A DNA stretch of 64,000 nt from Thermoguttaceae bacterium (lineage in GTDB: Bacteria; Planctomycetota; Planctomycetia; Pirellulales; Thermoguttaceae). Positions 14,238 to 34,548 of this stretch are shown in pieces (within the stretch, counting starts at the first letter, position 1; every line of letters begins with the position of its first letter). The translations under genes and the position numbers were made by a program. A model generated the notes under the pieces. The model ran no database searches and had not been told where the DNA came from. It was given only the letters and a program-made list of their open reading frames with translations. Location of the stretch: contig JBOFSQ010000111.1 in NCBI GenBank assembly GCA_051651625.1, positions 229 through 64,228 on the forward strand, read 5' to 3'.

Positions 14238-14359
14238 GACATCCGTAACGGGTCTCGCTGTCGCCTCTCCTTGGCTCCCCGTCTTATTCCGCTAGAATAG
14301 TACCCGTGTTGGCTAGTGTGTTTGTGTTTCACAGTCTCTCAAAGAAAGGTTGGCTCGTT

Positions 14360-15559
14360 ATGAAGAAGCAAATTGTGTCGCTGGCTCTTGCGTTTGTGTT
14401 TGGTGTGGGCGTGGCGTTTGGACAAGCGTCACTCAATGACCCCGCTCTCTTTCAAGTCCCCGAAATCAAAACTGTTGCGGAAGCACAAAACTTCTTGCGT
14501 GAAATCAACGGCAAAGCGAGGCCGCTGGTGAAGTCGCAAGAGGATCAGATGGTGCTTATTGAGAAGATGGCGGACGTGTTCACCACGCTCGGTGACAAAG
14601 TGCTCGCTCTCGCACCCGCCGACGATGCGGTTGCAACTGGGTACGCGCTAAAGTTTCAAGGTGCAGGCATACGTTTGGCGTTTGCCCATAACAGCGACGA
14701 CGCCGAGGCCAAAATCGCTGCGGCCAAGGCAGCTCTTGAAAAGCTGATCGAAGAAGCCGACGCGGTCCCCGAAGCAAAACCGCACGCCGACGACGCACGC
14801 GCCAAACTCTTTATGGAACGTGTCGCGCAGGAACTCCAAAAACTCGACGACACCAATCCAGACCATCGCAAGGTTCTGTTCCTTCGGCTGAAGCCAATCT
14901 TCGTTGAACAGGTCGAAAAATATCCGTCGCCCGCACTCGGTCAGATGTTGTCGGTTCTGATCGGACTCGCCGAAGACGAAAACAACCCTGCCGCTTCCGA
15001 CGCTGCCGCAAGCGAGCTGATTGCGCTGTTCACAAATTCGCCCGATGCGCGTCTCAAAAAAGTCGCTGCTAGTGCGGAAGGTGAACGCCGTCGCAACATC
15101 GGAAAACCGTTCGCAATCAAAGGGAAGACCGTCGCTGGCGACGACTTCGATTGGGAAAAGTACAAGGGAAAGATCGTCTTGATCGACTTCTGGGCGTCGT
15201 GGTGCGGACCGTGTATCGGCGAAGTCCCGAACATGATCAAGGCTTACGAACAGTTCAAAGACAAAGGGTTTGAGATCGTGAGCATCGGCGTTTGGGACGA
15301 GAACGACAAACTCAAGAAGGGGATGGAAGACCACAAAATGACGTGGGTCTCGCTCTCGGAAGACCTCACGACAAAGGACAATCCCGACGCCGCGAAGTTC
15401 GGCGAATCTTACGGGGTTCAAGGTATTCCGACGATGTTCCTCGTTGGTCGTGACGGCAAGATCATCGTTACCGACACGCAGAAGATTCGCGGCCCCAACA
15501 CCCTCATCAAAACGCTCGAAGAAATCATCGCCAAAGAAGAGGCGGAGAAGAAAAAGTAG
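14360..15559 (+). CDS. Secreted TlpA/ResA-like thiol-disulfide oxidoreductase with a helical N-terminal domain
   Basis: Signal peptide MKKQIVSLALAFVFGVGVAFG. C-terminal thioredoxin fold FWASWCGPCIGEVP ... GIPTMFLVGRDGKI. Confidence 0.8.
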   Translation: MKKQIVSLALAFVFGVGVAFGQASLNDPALFQVPEIKTVAEAQNFLREINGKARPLVKSQEDQMVLIEKMADVFTTLGDKVLALAPADDAVATGYALKFQGAGIRLAFAHNSDDAEAKIAAAKAALEKLIEEADAVPEAKPHADDARAKLFMERVAQELQKLDDTNPDHRKVLFLRLKPIFVEQVEKYPSPALGQMLSVLIGLAEDENNPAASDAAASELIALFTNSPDARLKKVAASAEGERRRNIGKPFAIKGKTVAGDDFDWEKYKGKIVLIDFWASWCGPCIGEVPNMIKAYEQFKDKGFEIVSIGVWDENDKLKKGMEDHKMTWVSLSEDLTTKDNPDAAKFGESYGVQGIPTMFLVGRDGKIIVTDTQKIRGPNTLIKTLEEIIAKEEAEKKK

Positions 15560-15711
15560 ACCGCGAATGCACACGACGCTACAATGCAAGCGTGTAAGCG
15601 TTCACAGTTGATTTCGAATTCGTCACCCCCGCGTACTCGGCGGGGGGCTAGAGCTAACGCTTTGGGGTTCGCTTGCGCGAACGCGCTGTCGCGTCTGCTT
15701 GCAGTGTTGTT

Positions 15712-15748
15712 CTCTGGATGCCCGCCGAGTACGCGGGCATGACGGAAC
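15712..15748. repeat. Family C-like hairpin (ATGCCCGCCGAGTACGCGGGCAT)
   Basis: Short palindrome. It accounts for the spurious N-terminal extension of the next ORF. Confidence 0.7.
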
Positions 15749-16206
15749 ATGGCGTGCACGGTTACGCAAATGCAAGGAGATTGTCCGTGGATTCACACAC
15801 TGACGTTGCGATTAACAAGGTCGCCACCATCGAACGGTGCATCAATCGCTTTCGTGAAGAGTATGCGTTTGACCCGACGATGAAAAGTTACACGCATGTT
15901 GACGCGATGATTTTGAATGTCAAACGTGCGTGTCAGGCGTGCGTTGATTTGGCAACGCATCTGATTTTCGTGAAGCGTTTGGGGAACCTACAAACCAGTG
16001 GCGATGCGTTTCTTCTTTTGCAAACGTGCGGACTCATCACCGAAGCGACGGCAAAAAATATGGTGCGTATGGTGACGTTTTGCAACATCGCCGTCCATCA
16101 ATACCAGTCGCTCGACACGAGCGTGCTTGAATCCGTCGCTACGCAACGCTGGCAAGACATGGTTTCCTACTGTGACGAATTGGGATTTGCTGTCAAAGTC
16201 AGGTGA
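15739..16206 (+). CDS. hepT: HepT-like HEPN/DUF86 protein with the catalytic Arg replaced (Cx4HxY)
   Basis: VTFCNIAVHQYQSLD sits where DUF86 proteins have (F/G)RNxxxHxY, with codon TGC instead of CGC. The start is uncertain: ATG 15739 or GTG 15787. No nucleotidyltransferase (MntA) ORF lies upstream. Confidence 0.65.
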   Translation: MTEHGVHGYANARRLSVDSHTDVAINKVATIERCINRFREEYAFDPTMKSYTHVDAMILNVKRACQACVDLATHLIFVKRLGNLQTSGDAFLLLQTCGLITEATAKNMVRMVTFCNIAVHQYQSLDTSVLESVATQRWQDMVSYCDELGFAVKVR

Positions 16207-16225
16207 ACATACAAACGAGGTCGCC

Positions 16226-17785
16226 ATGAAAAAGTTCAACACCACCGGTCTTTGCGTCCCGCGCAAACACTACATGGTTGACATCTCAAACAAGTTGCGA
16301 CAGATTGAACAACTTGTTAACGATGGCGAATACTTCACGATCAATCGTGGTCGGCAGTATGGAAAGACGACGACGTTCGCTTTGCTCGAAAGGTCACTGC
16401 GCGACAAATACTTGGTGCTGGCGACGAGTTTTGAAGCCGTTGGCGATGCGTTTGCGACAATGAACCAGTTCGCATCATCGTTCATCAGACTTTTGTCACG
16501 CGAGTTGGTACGCGAAAACGTTGCCCAAGAAATTGTTGAAGAGTGGAATCGCGGCAGCGATGCGATTGACTTGGTCGATCAGTTGGGGGAAAAAATCACA
16601 ACGCTTTGCAAAAGCGTTGACAAAGAAGTTGTTGTGATGATCGACGAAGTTGACAAGAGCAGCAACAACCAGCTTTTCTTGTTCTTCCTTGGCATGCTTC
16701 GTAACAAATACCTCGATGCCGACAACGACAAAGATGTTACGTTTCACAGCGTCATACTCGCGGGCGTGTACGACGTGAAAAACTTGAAACTCAAATTGCG
16801 TCCCGAAGACGAGAAGAAGTTCAACTCGCCGTGGAATATCGCAGCAGATTTTGAAGTTGACATGTCGTTCAATCCCGACGAAATTGCAACGATGCTCGTC
16901 GAATACGAGAACGATCATAAAACTGGAATGAACATCCCAGAGATCGCAGACGAAATCCACTACTACACAAGTGGTTATCCGTTCTTGGTGAGCAGACTTT
17001 GCAAAACGATTGACGAAAAGCTAAGCAAAGATTGGACTCCGCGCGGCGTCAAAGAAGCGGTCAACAATACGCTCAACAGCGAAAATCTGTTGTTTGACGA
17101 TTTGTTCAAGAATCTCGAAAACTACCGAGATTTGTACGATTTGATCTATGCGATCATGGTTGACGGAAAAAGGTTCTCGTTTGATTTGTCGCACCCGATG
17201 ATTAAGCTTTCGAGTGCATTTGCGATCATCAAAAATGAACGCCAAACGGTGGAAATCTCCAACCTGATTTTCGAGTCAAAGCTCTACACCTACTTCACGC
17301 TCAAGCGAGAAATTGCAGACGCAACCAAACGCGAAAACGGAAACAGCGACCGTTTTTCGGACAACGTTGTCAAAAACGGTCGTTTGAACATGGAACTCTT
17401 GCTGACGAAGTTTGCGGAGTTTTTGTACAGCGAGCACCGCGAGCGTGACCAGAAGTTTATCGAGCGTGAAGGGCGGCTTTTGTTTCTGTGTTTTTTGAAA
17501 CCGATTATCAACGGCGGAGGGTTTTACTTTGTCGAACCGGAAACGCGACACGACCGTCGGATGGACATCGTAGTAGTTTGGGGCACCGAAAAGTTCGTGC
17601 TCGAACTAAAAATCTGGTACGGCGAAAACAAACTCGAAGAAGGGTACGCGCAGCTTGCGGACTATCTTGATTCACAAAAACTCGACACGGGTTATTTGCT
17701 AACGTTTAACTTCAACAAAGTTCACGAGAGCAAAACCGAGTGGCTTGACGTGAACGGCAAGAAAATCTTCTCGGTGATGGTATAA
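16226..17785 (+). CDS. Predicted AAA-ATPase fused to a PD-(D/E)XK nuclease domain (PF09820 + PF08011-like architecture)
   Basis: N-terminal MKKFNTTGLCVPRKHYMVD...INRGRQYGKTTT (Walker A), MIDEVDK (Walker B), C-terminal RRMDIVVVWGTEKFVLELKIW (D...ExK). ATG at 16226 lies 19 nt after the hepT stop. Confidence 0.8.
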   Translation: MKKFNTTGLCVPRKHYMVDISNKLRQIEQLVNDGEYFTINRGRQYGKTTTFALLERSLRDKYLVLATSFEAVGDAFATMNQFASSFIRLLSRELVRENVAQEIVEEWNRGSDAIDLVDQLGEKITTLCKSVDKEVVVMIDEVDKSSNNQLFLFFLGMLRNKYLDADNDKDVTFHSVILAGVYDVKNLKLKLRPEDEKKFNSPWNIAADFEVDMSFNPDEIATMLVEYENDHKTGMNIPEIADEIHYYTSGYPFLVSRLCKTIDEKLSKDWTPRGVKEAVNNTLNSENLLFDDLFKNLENYRDLYDLIYAIMVDGKRFSFDLSHPMIKLSSAFAIIKNERQTVEISNLIFESKLYTYFTLKREIADATKRENGNSDRFSDNVVKNGRLNMELLLTKFAEFLYSEHRERDQKFIEREGRLLFLCFLKPIINGGGFYFVEPETRHDRRMDIVVVWGTEKFVLELKIWYGENKLEEGYAQLADYLDSQKLDTGYLLTFNFNKVHESKTEWLDVNGKKIFSVMV

Positions 17786-17796
17786 CCTGCCCCGAA

Positions 17797-17852
17797 CAGG
17801 AGCACGAAGCGTAAGCGAGTGTCATTAGGAACGCGAAGCGTAAGCGAGTGCC
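17797..17852 (+). repeat. Family B repeat, two tandem units
   Basis: gcacgaagcgtaagcgagtgtc ... aacgcgaagcgtaagcgagtgcc. Confidence 0.9.
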
Positions 17853-17874
17853 CGAACAAGAACGGATACAAACG

Positions 17875-18882
17875 ATGAGAGACGACCTTTTTTCCGAGAC
17901 GACGATGAGTTTTGGCGAGCATCTCGACGAGCTGCGAGTCTGTCTCTGGTTTTCGATGATGTGGCTTGCGGGCGGATTTATCGTCGGTCTGTGGCTTGGC
18001 GGTTATGTGGTGGCGTTCATTCAGGTTCCACTTACAAAATCGCTCGAAACCTACTACATCAACCGCGCGACCAAACACCTCACAGAGCTTGCACCGTCGC
18101 TCTCTACCGAAGGACACCCGTCCGAAGTTGCGACGATCCCACAAAAGCGGAAGATGGTGCCGCGCGAGTTCTGGGTCTACCCCGGCGAGATCGAACGCAC
18201 ACTCATATACAAAGGTCAAACGCCGGAAACACCAGCGGAAATAGTGAACGTTGACTACACCGCCGAACCGGTACGCATCTTGTTTTTCCAGAAGATTGCC
18301 GAGAGCGATCAAGTCCGTACAAAGTCGCTCAGCCAACACGAGACGTTTTCGATCTACATCAAGGCGTCGTTCGTTGTGGGGCTGTTTCTTGCCAGTCCGG
18401 GAGTGATCTATCACATCTGGACGTTCATCGCAGCCGGACTTTACCCACAAGAAAAACGGTACGTTTATTTCTTCGTCCCGTTCAGTGTGATTCTGTTTGT
18501 CGGCGGTGCGCTCTTTGCGTTTTTTGTCGTGTTTCAATATGTGCTCGACTTTTTGCTCCTGTTCAACGACTGGCTCAACGTCGATCCCGACCCGCGAATA
18601 TCAGAGTGGCTCTCGTTCGCACTGATGTTGCCGCTCGGATTCGGGATAAGTTTTCAGTTGCCGCTGGTGATGTTCGTTTTGGAACGGATTCACATTTTCA
18701 GCGTCGCCGACTATATGGCAAAGTGGCGTGTCGCGGTGCTGGTGATTGCAATCGCGTCGATGCTGCTCACGCCTTCCGACCCGTGGAGTATGCTCCTGAT
18801 GTTCGTGCCGCTGACGTGTTTGTACTTCGTCGGCGTCGCGCTTGCGGCGTTCCTGCCACGCGGGAAACGTGACGTGGAGTGA
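17875..18882 (+). CDS. tatC: Twin-arginine translocase subunit TatC (with an extended first periplasmic loop)
   Basis: FGEHLDELRVCLW and GISFQLPLVMFVLERI, six hydrophobic segments. The ORF-track start at 17848 lies in the family B repeat. Confidence 0.85.
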   Translation: MRDDLFSETTMSFGEHLDELRVCLWFSMMWLAGGFIVGLWLGGYVVAFIQVPLTKSLETYYINRATKHLTELAPSLSTEGHPSEVATIPQKRKMVPREFWVYPGEIERTLIYKGQTPETPAEIVNVDYTAEPVRILFFQKIAESDQVRTKSLSQHETFSIYIKASFVVGLFLASPGVIYHIWTFIAAGLYPQEKRYVYFFVPFSVILFVGGALFAFFVVFQYVLDFLLLFNDWLNVDPDPRISEWLSFALMLPLGFGISFQLPLVMFVLERIHIFSVADYMAKWRVAVLVIAIASMLLTPSDPWSMLLMFVPLTCLYFVGVALAAFLPRGKRDVE

Positions 18883-34449: not shown

Positions 34450-34548
34450 AACAAGAACACGAAGCGTAAGCGAGTGGCCAGCTGTGAAGACACCGCACTG
34501 CGGGAAACCAGTCACTCCAGTCATCCCCGCAGAGTACGCGGGAATGAT
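34450..34548 (+). repeat. Family B unit followed by a family C-like hairpin
   Basis: aacaagaacacgaagcgtaagcgagtggcc ... catccccgcagagtacgcgggaatg. Confidence 0.8.

What the first reader, a model, noticed from the sequence alone, without database searches (positions are those of the whole stretch)
15739..17785. Orphan HepT-like HEPN gene with catalytic Arg->Cys, paired with an AAA-ATPase/PD-(D/E)XK gene in a repeat-flanked cassette
DUF86/HepT toxins carry Rx4HxY and are normally preceded by the MntA nucleotidyltransferase antitoxin. Here the motif reads FCNIAVHQY (TGC where CGC is expected, a one-base difference). No MntA ORF is present; only repeats occupy 15560-15740. Nineteen nt downstream starts a 519-aa AAA-ATPase + PD-(D/E)XK fusion. 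The two genes are visibly more AT-rich than their neighbours and are bracketed by repeat families C (15712-15748) and B (17797-17852), between housekeeping tlpA-like and tatC genes. This could be a degenerate type VII TA remnant, or a HEPN-plus-ATPase-nuclease defence pair not described as such.
Basis: partly seen in the sequence, partly recalled or inferred. Interest (0 to 1): 0.6.

Follow-up and report, generated by a model that had tools for sequence, protein, structure and literature searches.

The report
Disarmed orphan HepT toxin beside unrelated ATPase-nuclease
This is a leftover toxin gene from a toxin-antitoxin pair: it lost its antitoxin gene by deletion and its catalytic arginine by mutation, and it merely sits next to an unrelated, widespread ATPase-nuclease gene of unknown function, so it is ordinary gene decay and not a new defence system.

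Summary
hepT is a 139-aa gene (GTG start 15787, not ATG 15739; stop 16206). It matches the type VII HepT toxin model strongly but reads FCNIAVHQY where the family has FRNIAVHQY. No mntA gene precedes it. A 519-aa AAA+ ATPase/PD-(D/E)XK gene starts 19 nt downstream, and both genes are AT-richer than their flanks.

The "HEPN plus ATPase-nuclease pair" reading fails.
- The closest HepT relatives (70% aa in L001-L005; 85-97% nt in metagenome contigs) all carry Arg.
- Their homology to the window starts at 15772. Upstream of that point they have the 3' end of mntA, where the window has a palindromic genome repeat.
- No relative's contig joins hepT to the ATPase gene.
- Of 116 loci with ATPase homologues, none has a HepT gene immediately upstream, and their neighbours are unrelated to one another.

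Two other lineages show the same decay: a clean deletion of mntA together with loss of the catalytic Arg (P0145 versus P0277; P0006 versus P0005). Cys variants are scattered singletons, not a clade.

Verdict: a disarmed orphan remnant of a HepT/MntA module, next to an independently acquired, intact, standalone ATPase-nuclease of unknown function.

The parts
15621..15744 (.). REP-like palindromic repeat: two inverted 33-nt arms, each itself a GC hairpin around GAGTAC. It occupies the place where relatives have mntA.
   Evidence: I1, 82% complementary; the core CCGCCGAGTACGCGGG occurs twice here and again near 34527; word depth about 1000-1660 in metagenome X1, so it is multicopy in relatives.
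15772..15803 (+). 3' remnant of mntA. The last ~10 codons read KEIVRGFTH* in the mntA frame, with the TGA at 15801-15803. It overlaps the hepT start by 17 nt, exactly as the intact mntA does in L001. The deletion breakpoint lies at 15771/15772.
   Evidence: the alignment with the L001 mntA-hepT junction (REIIRGFVR*) starts here; four X1 contigs start to match at 15772/15774, and the unmatched sequence before that point is the mntA 3' end (..GGAATGTACTGCAACTTTAGC.., compare L001 GGAATGTATTGTAATTTTAAT). Depth is 0 at 15745-15768.
15774..15780 (+). Shine-Dalgarno sequence AAGGAGA, 6-7 nt before the GTG start of hepT.
   Evidence: Read directly from the sequence. It is conserved in L001.
15787..16206 (+). 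hepT, 139 aa: HEPN-fold type VII toxin homologue with the catalytic Arg replaced by Cys. The His and the Tyr AMPylation site are retained.
   Evidence: (gene call of 139 aa).
16081..16083 (+). Codon 99, TGC (Cys), at the Arg position of the Rx4HxY motif.
   Evidence: L001 has AGA; three closer X1 contigs have CGG. R in 136 of 156 family representatives.
16226..17785 (+). Standalone ORC/STAND-like AAA+ ATPase with a winged-helix region and a C-terminal PD-(D/E)XK nuclease, 519 aa. The catalytic motifs are intact.
   Evidence: PF09820, PF13366; invariant G46 K47 T48, D140 E141, E437, E460-L-K462, and D447 in at least 90%; pLDDT 84.7; best fold matches 2fna, 2qen, ORC2/Cdc6, Avs3, MalT.
17798..17850 (+). 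Two tandem units of the dispersed intergenic repeat family B (..CGAAGCGTAAGCGAGTG), lying between the ATPase stop and the tatC start.
   Evidence: D1; 16 copies in the window against 0.33 expected.

Best explanation
The locus is a mosaic of two unrelated items.

- The antitoxin gene mntA was deleted down to its last ~10 codons. The breakpoint is at 15771/15772, beside a dispersed palindromic repeat.
- The catalytic Arg of the Rx4HxY RNase motif is now Cys.
- Unmodified HepT arrests growth, and MntA neutralises it by AMPylating the motif Tyr (PMC7641770). A cell without mntA should therefore only tolerate a HepT that is catalytically dead or strongly weakened.
- My inference is that the Arg-to-Cys change disarmed the toxin and made the antitoxin dispensable, or was selected once the antitoxin was lost. 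The ORF is still intact because the event is recent.

(2) The downstream gene is an independently acquired, AT-rich member of a very large, horizontally spread, often multicopy family. It is a standalone ORC/STAND-like AAA+ ATPase fused to a PD-(D/E)XK nuclease.
- Its Walker A, Walker B and nuclease residues are intact.
- It most likely acts alone as an NTP-dependent DNA nuclease, either as a single-gene defence or as a selfish element. Its biological role is unknown.

The 19-nt spacing probably means the two genes are co-transcribed here, but the adjacency is an accident of this genome and not a system.

Shown by the data: gene identities, loss of mntA, the breakpoint, Arg in all close relatives, no conserved adjacency, and the same decay path in two other lineages. 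Inferred: loss of RNase activity, the order of events, and the function of the ATPase-nuclease.
For: Identity of hepT: NF047751 at 114 bits and PF01934 at 63 bits.

The closest homologue, P0002 (70% aa), has FRNIAVHQY and a 126-aa Polbeta/MntA gene that overlaps it by 17 nt. Its neighbours are CofD and PTS-HPr, with no ATPase gene.

Metagenome X1 holds closer relatives (85-97% nt).
- All have CGG (Arg) at codon 99.
- Their match to the window begins at 15772, with the mntA 3' end before that point.
- None spans 16200-16207. The hepT contigs diverge after 16197, and the ATPase contigs have other upstream sequences.

The ATPase homologue at 69% identity follows a MaoC dehydratase gene.

Across 116 homologous ATPase loci:
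- No HepT gene lies immediately upstream. Only 3 weak HEPN-like ORFs lie within 3 kb.
- The upstream neighbours of 65 of these loci fall into 136 different Pfam families with no recurrent partner.

The loss of Arg goes with the loss of mntA.
- All four Arg-bearing HepTs that I checked have an overlapping mntA: P0002, P0277, P0005 and P0003.
- All four non-Arg HepTs lack it: the window, P0145, P0228 and P0006.
- L088 against L133 shows a clean 0.9-kb deletion that removes mntA. L134 against L135 shows a clean 0.5-kb deletion.

The Cys variants are scattered singletons.
- On the family tree they need 5 changes, no fewer than shuffled labels.
- The 118 nearest homologues of P0145 all have Arg.

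The window lineage looks somewhat faster-evolving: terminal branch 0.35 against 0.12 for its sister, and 10 against 4 derived residues.

The ATPase-nuclease has no PADLOC or PHROG hit.
Against: - The hepT ORF is full-length with a good Shine-Dalgarno sequence. Differences from the X1 relatives are mostly synonymous (26 synonymous changes against about 11 nonsynonymous codons). The excess of derived changes is not significant (p = 0.18). Continued selection for some function is therefore not excluded.
- The loss of RNase activity in a Cys variant is inferred from the role of the motif, not measured.
- No sequencing run of this organism itself was available. T16081 rests on a single assembly.
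- The 19-nt spacing is compatible with co-transcription.
Confidence: 0.8

Rival explanations
1. The Cys-HepT and the ATPase-nuclease form a functional two-gene defence module. The HEPN protein would act as sensor or second effector, and the ATPase-nuclease as partner.
For: The spacing is 19 nt on the same strand, and both genes are AT-richer than their flanks. HEPN domains and ATPase-nuclease proteins both occur in known defence systems (established knowledge; PMC10952713 lists PF09820 among defence ATPase domains).
Against: - The adjacency is absent from every relative examined.
- It is absent from 116 homologous ATPase loci.
- hepT is visibly derived from an mntA-hepT module, and a remnant of mntA is still attached.
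- The catalytic Arg is missing.
- Neither protein has a PADLOC hit.
- The neighbours are housekeeping genes, not a defence island.
Confidence: 0.04
2. The HepT is still an active or weakened toxin and is kept in check in trans by an MntA paralogue encoded elsewhere in the genome. HepT/MntA modules are often multicopy.
For: The ORF is intact, and the His and the Tyr104-equivalent AMPylation site are retained. Substitutions against relatives are mostly synonymous. The rest of the genome could not be searched.
Against: - The Arg of Rx4H is part of the RNase active site (PMC7641770; HEPN literature, from my own knowledge).
- The same Arg loss accompanies mntA deletion in two other independent lineages. 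That pattern is what disarmament predicts, and trans-neutralisation does not require it.
Confidence: 0.08
3. The catalytically dead HepT has been co-opted as a non-enzymatic RNA-binding or regulatory protein and is kept by selection.
For: The reading frame and Shine-Dalgarno sequence are preserved. Nonsynonymous divergence from relatives is low. Other Arg-less orphan HepTs persist as intact ORFs in several samples.
Against: - The Cys variants are terminal singletons, and their nearest relatives carry Arg. No conserved Arg-less subfamily emerged.
- Six of the 7 Cys variants have terminal branches above the median, which suggests relaxed constraint.
- The low dN/dS mostly reflects the time before inactivation.
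Confidence: 0.07

Closest known systems
Type VII HepT/MntA (HEPN/MNT) toxin-antitoxin system, e.g. Shewanella oneidensis SO_3166/SO_3165 (PMC7641770)
   Same: The toxin has the same fold and family (NF047751 equivalog score 114 bits). Its length is the same (about 139 aa). The His and the AMPylated Tyr of Rx4HxY are retained. The remnant of the upstream antitoxin gene overlaps the toxin start, as in intact modules.
   Different: The antitoxin gene is deleted, and the catalytic Arg is Cys. This is therefore a remnant and not a working TA pair.
DUF1703-type proteins: N-terminal AAA-ATPase_like (PF09820) plus C-terminal PD-(D/E)XK (PF08011). These are uncharacterised, spread by HGT, and multicopy in some genomes (PMC6387759; Knizewski et al. 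2007, PMC1913061).
   Same: The two-domain architecture and size are the same, PF09820 is matched, and the Walker and nuclease motifs are intact. Like those proteins, this family is scattered across phyla and shows paralogues within one genome.
   Different: The nuclease domain scores with PF13366 (PDDEXK_3/GxxExxY-like) and not with PF08011. Homologues are mostly tagged PF14516 (AAA_35). The function of either group is unknown.
Archaeal Arch_ATPase/ORC-Cdc6-like and STAND NTPases (PDB 2fna, 2qen, 1w5s; Avs3 8dgc; MalT 8bob)
   Same: They are the best structural matches to the N-terminal ~400 residues of the model (Foldseek E 2e-7 to 7e-5).
   Different: Sequence identity is only 10-14%. None of them has the C-terminal PD-(D/E)XK domain in this arrangement. 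Avs proteins carry large C-terminal sensor repeats that are absent here.

Membership tests
HepT toxin (type VII TA, PF01934 / NF047751) | Sequence match to the family model above the curated cutoff | tested here: met
   NF047751 at 114.1 bits (cutoff 60); PF01934 at 63.1 bits (cutoff 23.5).
HepT toxin (type VII TA, PF01934 / NF047751) | Rx4HxY motif: catalytic Arg and His, plus the Tyr that is AMPylated | tested here: not met
   The motif reads FCNIAVHQY. The Arg is replaced by Cys (TGC 16081-16083), while His104 and Tyr106 are kept. Arg is present in 136 of 156 family representatives.
HepT toxin (type VII TA, PF01934 / NF047751) | Adjacent, usually overlapping, upstream MntA nucleotidyltransferase gene | tested here: not met
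   There is no MntA in the window. Only the last ~10 codons remain, at 15772-15803.
HepT toxin (type VII TA, PF01934 / NF047751) | RNase activity and growth toxicity that MntA neutralises | not testable with these tools
   This needs expression and assay.
AAA-ATPase_like + PD-(D/E)XK (DUF1703-type architecture) | N-terminal PF09820 ATPase domain with Walker A and Walker B | tested here: met
   PF09820 at 29.8 bits (cutoff 26.1). GKT at 46-48 and DE at 140-141 are invariant in 75 homologues. The fold is ORC/STAND-like.
AAA-ATPase_like + PD-(D/E)XK (DUF1703-type architecture) | C-terminal PF08011 (PDDEXK_9) domain | tested here: not met
   There is no PF08011 hit at E <= 0.01. Instead PF13366 (PDDEXK_3) scores 22.9 bits (cutoff 22) at residues 441-498. 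The E437, D447 and E460-x-K462 residues are conserved.
Known anti-phage defence systems (PADLOC-DB v2) | Match of either protein to a defence-system model | tested here: not met
   There are 0 families for both proteins, and 0 PHROGs.
   Of 116 ATPase loci, none has a HepT gene adjacent upstream, and 3 have a weak HEPN-like ORF within 3 kb. The upstream neighbours are heterogeneous. The closest relatives of each gene lie in other contexts.

The most novel reading that the evidence does not exclude
The disarmed Cys99 HepT is not junk. It would be retained and co-transcribed with the ATPase-nuclease as a non-catalytic RNA-binding sensor or regulator, making a lineage-specific new module assembled from a dead toxin. 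A milder, better supported generalisation is that deletion of mntA is repeatedly coupled to substitution of the HepT catalytic Arg: three independent lineages here, and 4 of 4 against 0 of 4 in the genes I checked.
Probability: 0.05. Interest if true: 0.5.

Novelty: new member of a known kind. Interest (0 to 1): 0.2.

Why it matters
The locus itself matters little. It is a clear example of how a toxin-antitoxin module decays: the antitoxin gene is deleted and the toxin is disarmed at its catalytic Arg. The deletion breakpoint can be mapped to the base. Two independent parallel cases elsewhere show the same path.

It also warns against reading tight spacing plus low GC as a "system". The ATPase-nuclease belongs to a very large uncharacterised family (more than 8000 homologues) whose function is still open. 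This locus adds no partner or context clue for that family.

Tried and rejected
- I could not count HepT/MntA paralogues in the genome or look at synteny in relatives.
- The context of the closest ATPase homologue, P0008 (71%, Thermoguttaceae MAG), is not on record.
- A metagenome scan with the ATPase found nothing closer than 50% identity.
- A TatC-based search for an "empty site" gave only one relative, at 49% identity and without synteny.
- The CofD, HPr and MaoC neighbours of the relatives' genes are not in the window.
- A PDB sequence search with the ATPase profile found nothing meaningful.
- PADLOC and PHROGs gave no hits.
- The promoter and terminator scan was uninformative.
- The only public run that shares words with the region, X1, holds relatives and not this organism (share 0.05). 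The T at 16081 could not be checked in reads, and expression could not be assessed.
- I considered a conserved Cys-bearing HepT subfamily and rejected it.
- I considered a transposon-like cassette bounded by matching repeats and rejected it, because the two flanking repeat families differ and both are genome-wide.
Full report
**What is there**

The ORF table and sequence show a HepT-like ORF that ends at 16206. A 519-aa ORF follows at 16226-17785, after a 19-nt spacer.

hepT:
- It matches PF01934 at 63 bits and the NCBIfam equivalog NF047751 "type VII TA system HepT family RNase toxin" at 114 bits, against a cutoff of 60.
- A strong Shine-Dalgarno sequence, AAGGAGA (15774-15780), precedes a GTG at 15787.
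- The public collection's gene call and all homologues are about 139 aa. The gene is therefore 15787-16206.
- Codon 99 is TGC, giving FCNIAVHQY where the family has FRNIAVHQY. The His and the Tyr are kept.

The downstream protein:
- It matches PF09820 at 29.8 bits (cutoff 26.1) over residues 23-184, and PF13366 (PDDEXK_3) at 22.9 bits (cutoff 22) over residues 441-498. It does not match PF08011.

Composition and repeats:
- GC falls to 44-50% across the two genes, against 53-61% on either side.
- The spacer upstream of hepT holds an inverted repeat at 15621-15653 / 15712-15744. The spacer before tatC holds two family-B units at 17798-17850.
- Both repeat types are dispersed in the window. Family B has 16 copies against 0.33 expected. 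The palindrome core has 5 matches against about 1 expected.
- Earlier notes on this genome describe the same repeat families.
- They are ordinary intergenic repeats of this genome and not cassette ends.

**hepT is the remnant of an mntA-hepT module**

The closest full-length homologue:
- P0002 (70% aa) occurs on five contigs of one study (L001-L005).
- In each it is preceded by a 126-aa Polbeta-family MntA gene that overlaps it by 17 nt. The pair lies between a CofD gene and a PTS-HPr gene.
- It has AGA (Arg) at codon 99.

The junction:
- I aligned the L001 junction with the window. Similarity starts at the Shine-Dalgarno sequence.
- In the mntA reading frame the window still reads KEIVRGFTH*, against REIIRGFVR* in L001. 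The stop codon is at the same place, 15801-15803.

Closer relatives in metagenome X1:
- The one public run that shares words with the region is X1, a frog metagenome. It holds relatives at 85-97% nt identity.
- Four contigs begin to match the window at 15772/15774. Their unmatched upstream sequence (..GGAATGTACTGCAACTTTAGC..) is the 3' end of mntA; compare L001 GGAATGTATTGTAATTTTAAT.
- Nothing in X1 covers 15745-15768.
- The mntA deletion breakpoint therefore lies at 15771/15772, just right of the palindromic repeat.
- At codon 99, the three contigs closest to the window read CGG (Arg).

No MntA-like sequence exists anywhere in the window.

**The Cys is a singleton, and loss of Arg goes with loss of mntA**

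Frequency in the family:
- Among 156 HepT sequences (150 representatives at 50% identity plus the near homologues), the position holds R in 136 and C in 7. Smaller numbers have L, P, A, S, K, Q or I.
- On a maximum-likelihood tree the seven Cys sequences need 5 changes, no fewer than shuffled labels. Six of the seven have terminal branches above the median.

Gene neighbourhoods:

| HepT | Residue at the Arg position | Upstream neighbour |
|---|---|---|
| P0002 | Arg | overlapping mntA |
| P0277 | Arg | overlapping mntA |
| P0005 | Arg | overlapping mntA |
| P0003 | Arg | overlapping mntA |
| window | Cys | palindromic repeat, mntA remnant only |
| P0145 | Cys | FAD monooxygenase |
| P0228 | Cys | HIT-like gene |
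| P0006 | Leu | BNR-repeat gene |

Two of these are matched pairs on syntenic DNA:
- P0145 is 92% identical to P0277. L088 differs from L133 by a clean deletion of about 0.9 kb that removes DUF2783 and mntA, up to 1 nt before the hepT start.
- L134 (P0006) differs from L135 (P0005) by a deletion of about 0.5 kb that removes mntA and the first ~22 codons of hepT.

The 118 nearest homologues of P0145 all have Arg.

The tally is 4 of 4 against 0 of 4, which by my own arithmetic gives a two-sided Fisher p of about 0.03. This is what the biology predicts. Unmodified HepT cleaves mRNA and arrests growth. MntA neutralises it by tri-AMPylating the motif Tyr (PMC7641770). Loss of the antitoxin should therefore be survivable only with a disarmed toxin.

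**How decayed is the window's copy?**

- Differences from the X1 relatives are mostly synonymous: 26 synonymous changes against about 11 nonsynonymous codons among the variants the tool lists.
- Polarising against outgroups, the window lineage has 10 derived residues against 4 in P0002. R99C and I53V are at conserved positions. The excess is not significant (p = 0.18).
- Its terminal branch is 0.35 against 0.12 for P0002.
- I read this as recent inactivation with the start of relaxed constraint. It does not exclude a retained non-catalytic role.

**The ATPase-nuclease is a separate, standalone gene**

- It has more than 8000 homologues. The nearest are at 71% (a Thermoguttaceae MAG) and 69%. 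The rest are at about 45-55% in Clostridia, Bacteroidales, spirochaetes, Fibrobacterota, Desulfobacterales and others, often with several copies in one MAG.
- Invariant or nearly invariant residues in 75 homologues include Walker A (G46 K47 T48), Walker B (D140 E141) and a PD-(D/E)XK set (E437, D447, E460-L-K462).
- An AlphaFold model built with that alignment has pLDDT 84.7.
- Its best PDB matches are archaeal ORC-like ATPases (2fna, 2qen), ORC2/Cdc6, Avs3 and MalT. The N-terminal ~400 residues are therefore an ORC/STAND-like AAA+ module with helical and winged-helix parts. The nuclease follows.
- There is no PADLOC or PHROG hit.
- The architecture equals that of the uncharacterised DUF1703 proteins (PF09820 + PF08011), which are described as HGT-prone and expanded in some genomes (PMC6387759). 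The nuclease Pfam entry differs here.

**Is the adjacency conserved? No.**

- P0002's contigs have PTS-HPr after hepT.
- The 69% ATPase homologue, from the same study, follows a MaoC dehydratase gene.
- In X1 no contig crosses 16200-16207. The hepT contigs diverge after 16197, and the ATPase contigs start to match at 16212/16226 with at least two different upstream sequences.
- Among 80 genome loci and 36 metagenome loci that encode homologues, a HepT profile finds no adjacent upstream HepT. It finds only three weak HEPN-like ORFs within 2.5-3 kb, in L078, L099 and L115.
- The nearest upstream ORFs of 65 loci fall into 136 Pfam families. The most frequent, at 3 loci each, are another paralogue of the same ATPase and response regulators.

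**Conclusion**

The region is a disarmed, orphaned HepT: mntA is deleted and the catalytic Arg is now Cys. It sits next to an independently acquired, intact, standalone AAA+/PD-(D/E)XK gene of unknown role, between housekeeping genes in a repeat-rich planctomycete-like genome.

The caveats are these:
- The inactivity of the Cys form is inferred.
- The single base T16081 could not be checked in reads from this organism.

Noticed in passing
L092:2583-3794 (also L093-L095): Another Arg-to-Cys HepT (P0228, FCKLAVHDY) sits between a weakly HIT-like 128-140-aa gene (32-nt gap) and an unknown 128-aa gene that overlaps it by 4 nt. The arrangement is the same in contigs from four samples. HIT enzymes act on nucleotidylated substrates, so this could be a different partner arrangement for a HepT-like protein.
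   Followed up: partly
window 15772-15896 compared with 14329-14895: One X1 contig is 97% identical to the 5' part of hepT (4 differences in 125 nt). The housekeeping tlpA-like gene next door is only about 83% identical to its best X1 contig (94 differences in 567 nt). This suggests recent exchange of the mntA-hepT module among related planctomycetes.
   Followed up: no
window 15556-15712 and 17754-17910: The word depth of metagenome X1 rises to about 1660 and about 710 over the two repeat-bearing spacers, against 5-130 elsewhere. The palindromic repeat and the family-B repeat are therefore highly multicopy in related organisms too.
   Followed up: no
L078:1498-2342 (Clostridium gasigenes DSM 12272): Two small HEPN-like ORFs lie about 0.7-1.5 kb upstream of an ATPase-nuclease homologue. 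One has RNKIAHGY and weak RiboL-PSP-HEPN/HepT-like hits. This is the only such case among 80 genome loci, so it is probably coincidence.
   Followed up: partly
L013 and L025; L020 and L036; L033 and L041; L046 and L061; L055 and L057; L060 and L064; L065 and L079: Several MAGs carry two or more copies of the ATPase-nuclease family on different contigs. At 3 of 65 loci the upstream neighbour is another PF09820 paralogue. The family behaves as a multicopy, mobile gene.
   Followed up: no
L006:525-2231: The called product of the 69%-identical ATPase homologue (568 aa) only translates with TGA read as Trp. The extension reads through the stop of the preceding MaoC gene. This looks like a gene-calling artefact, and the real protein is probably about 519 aa.
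   Followed up: no
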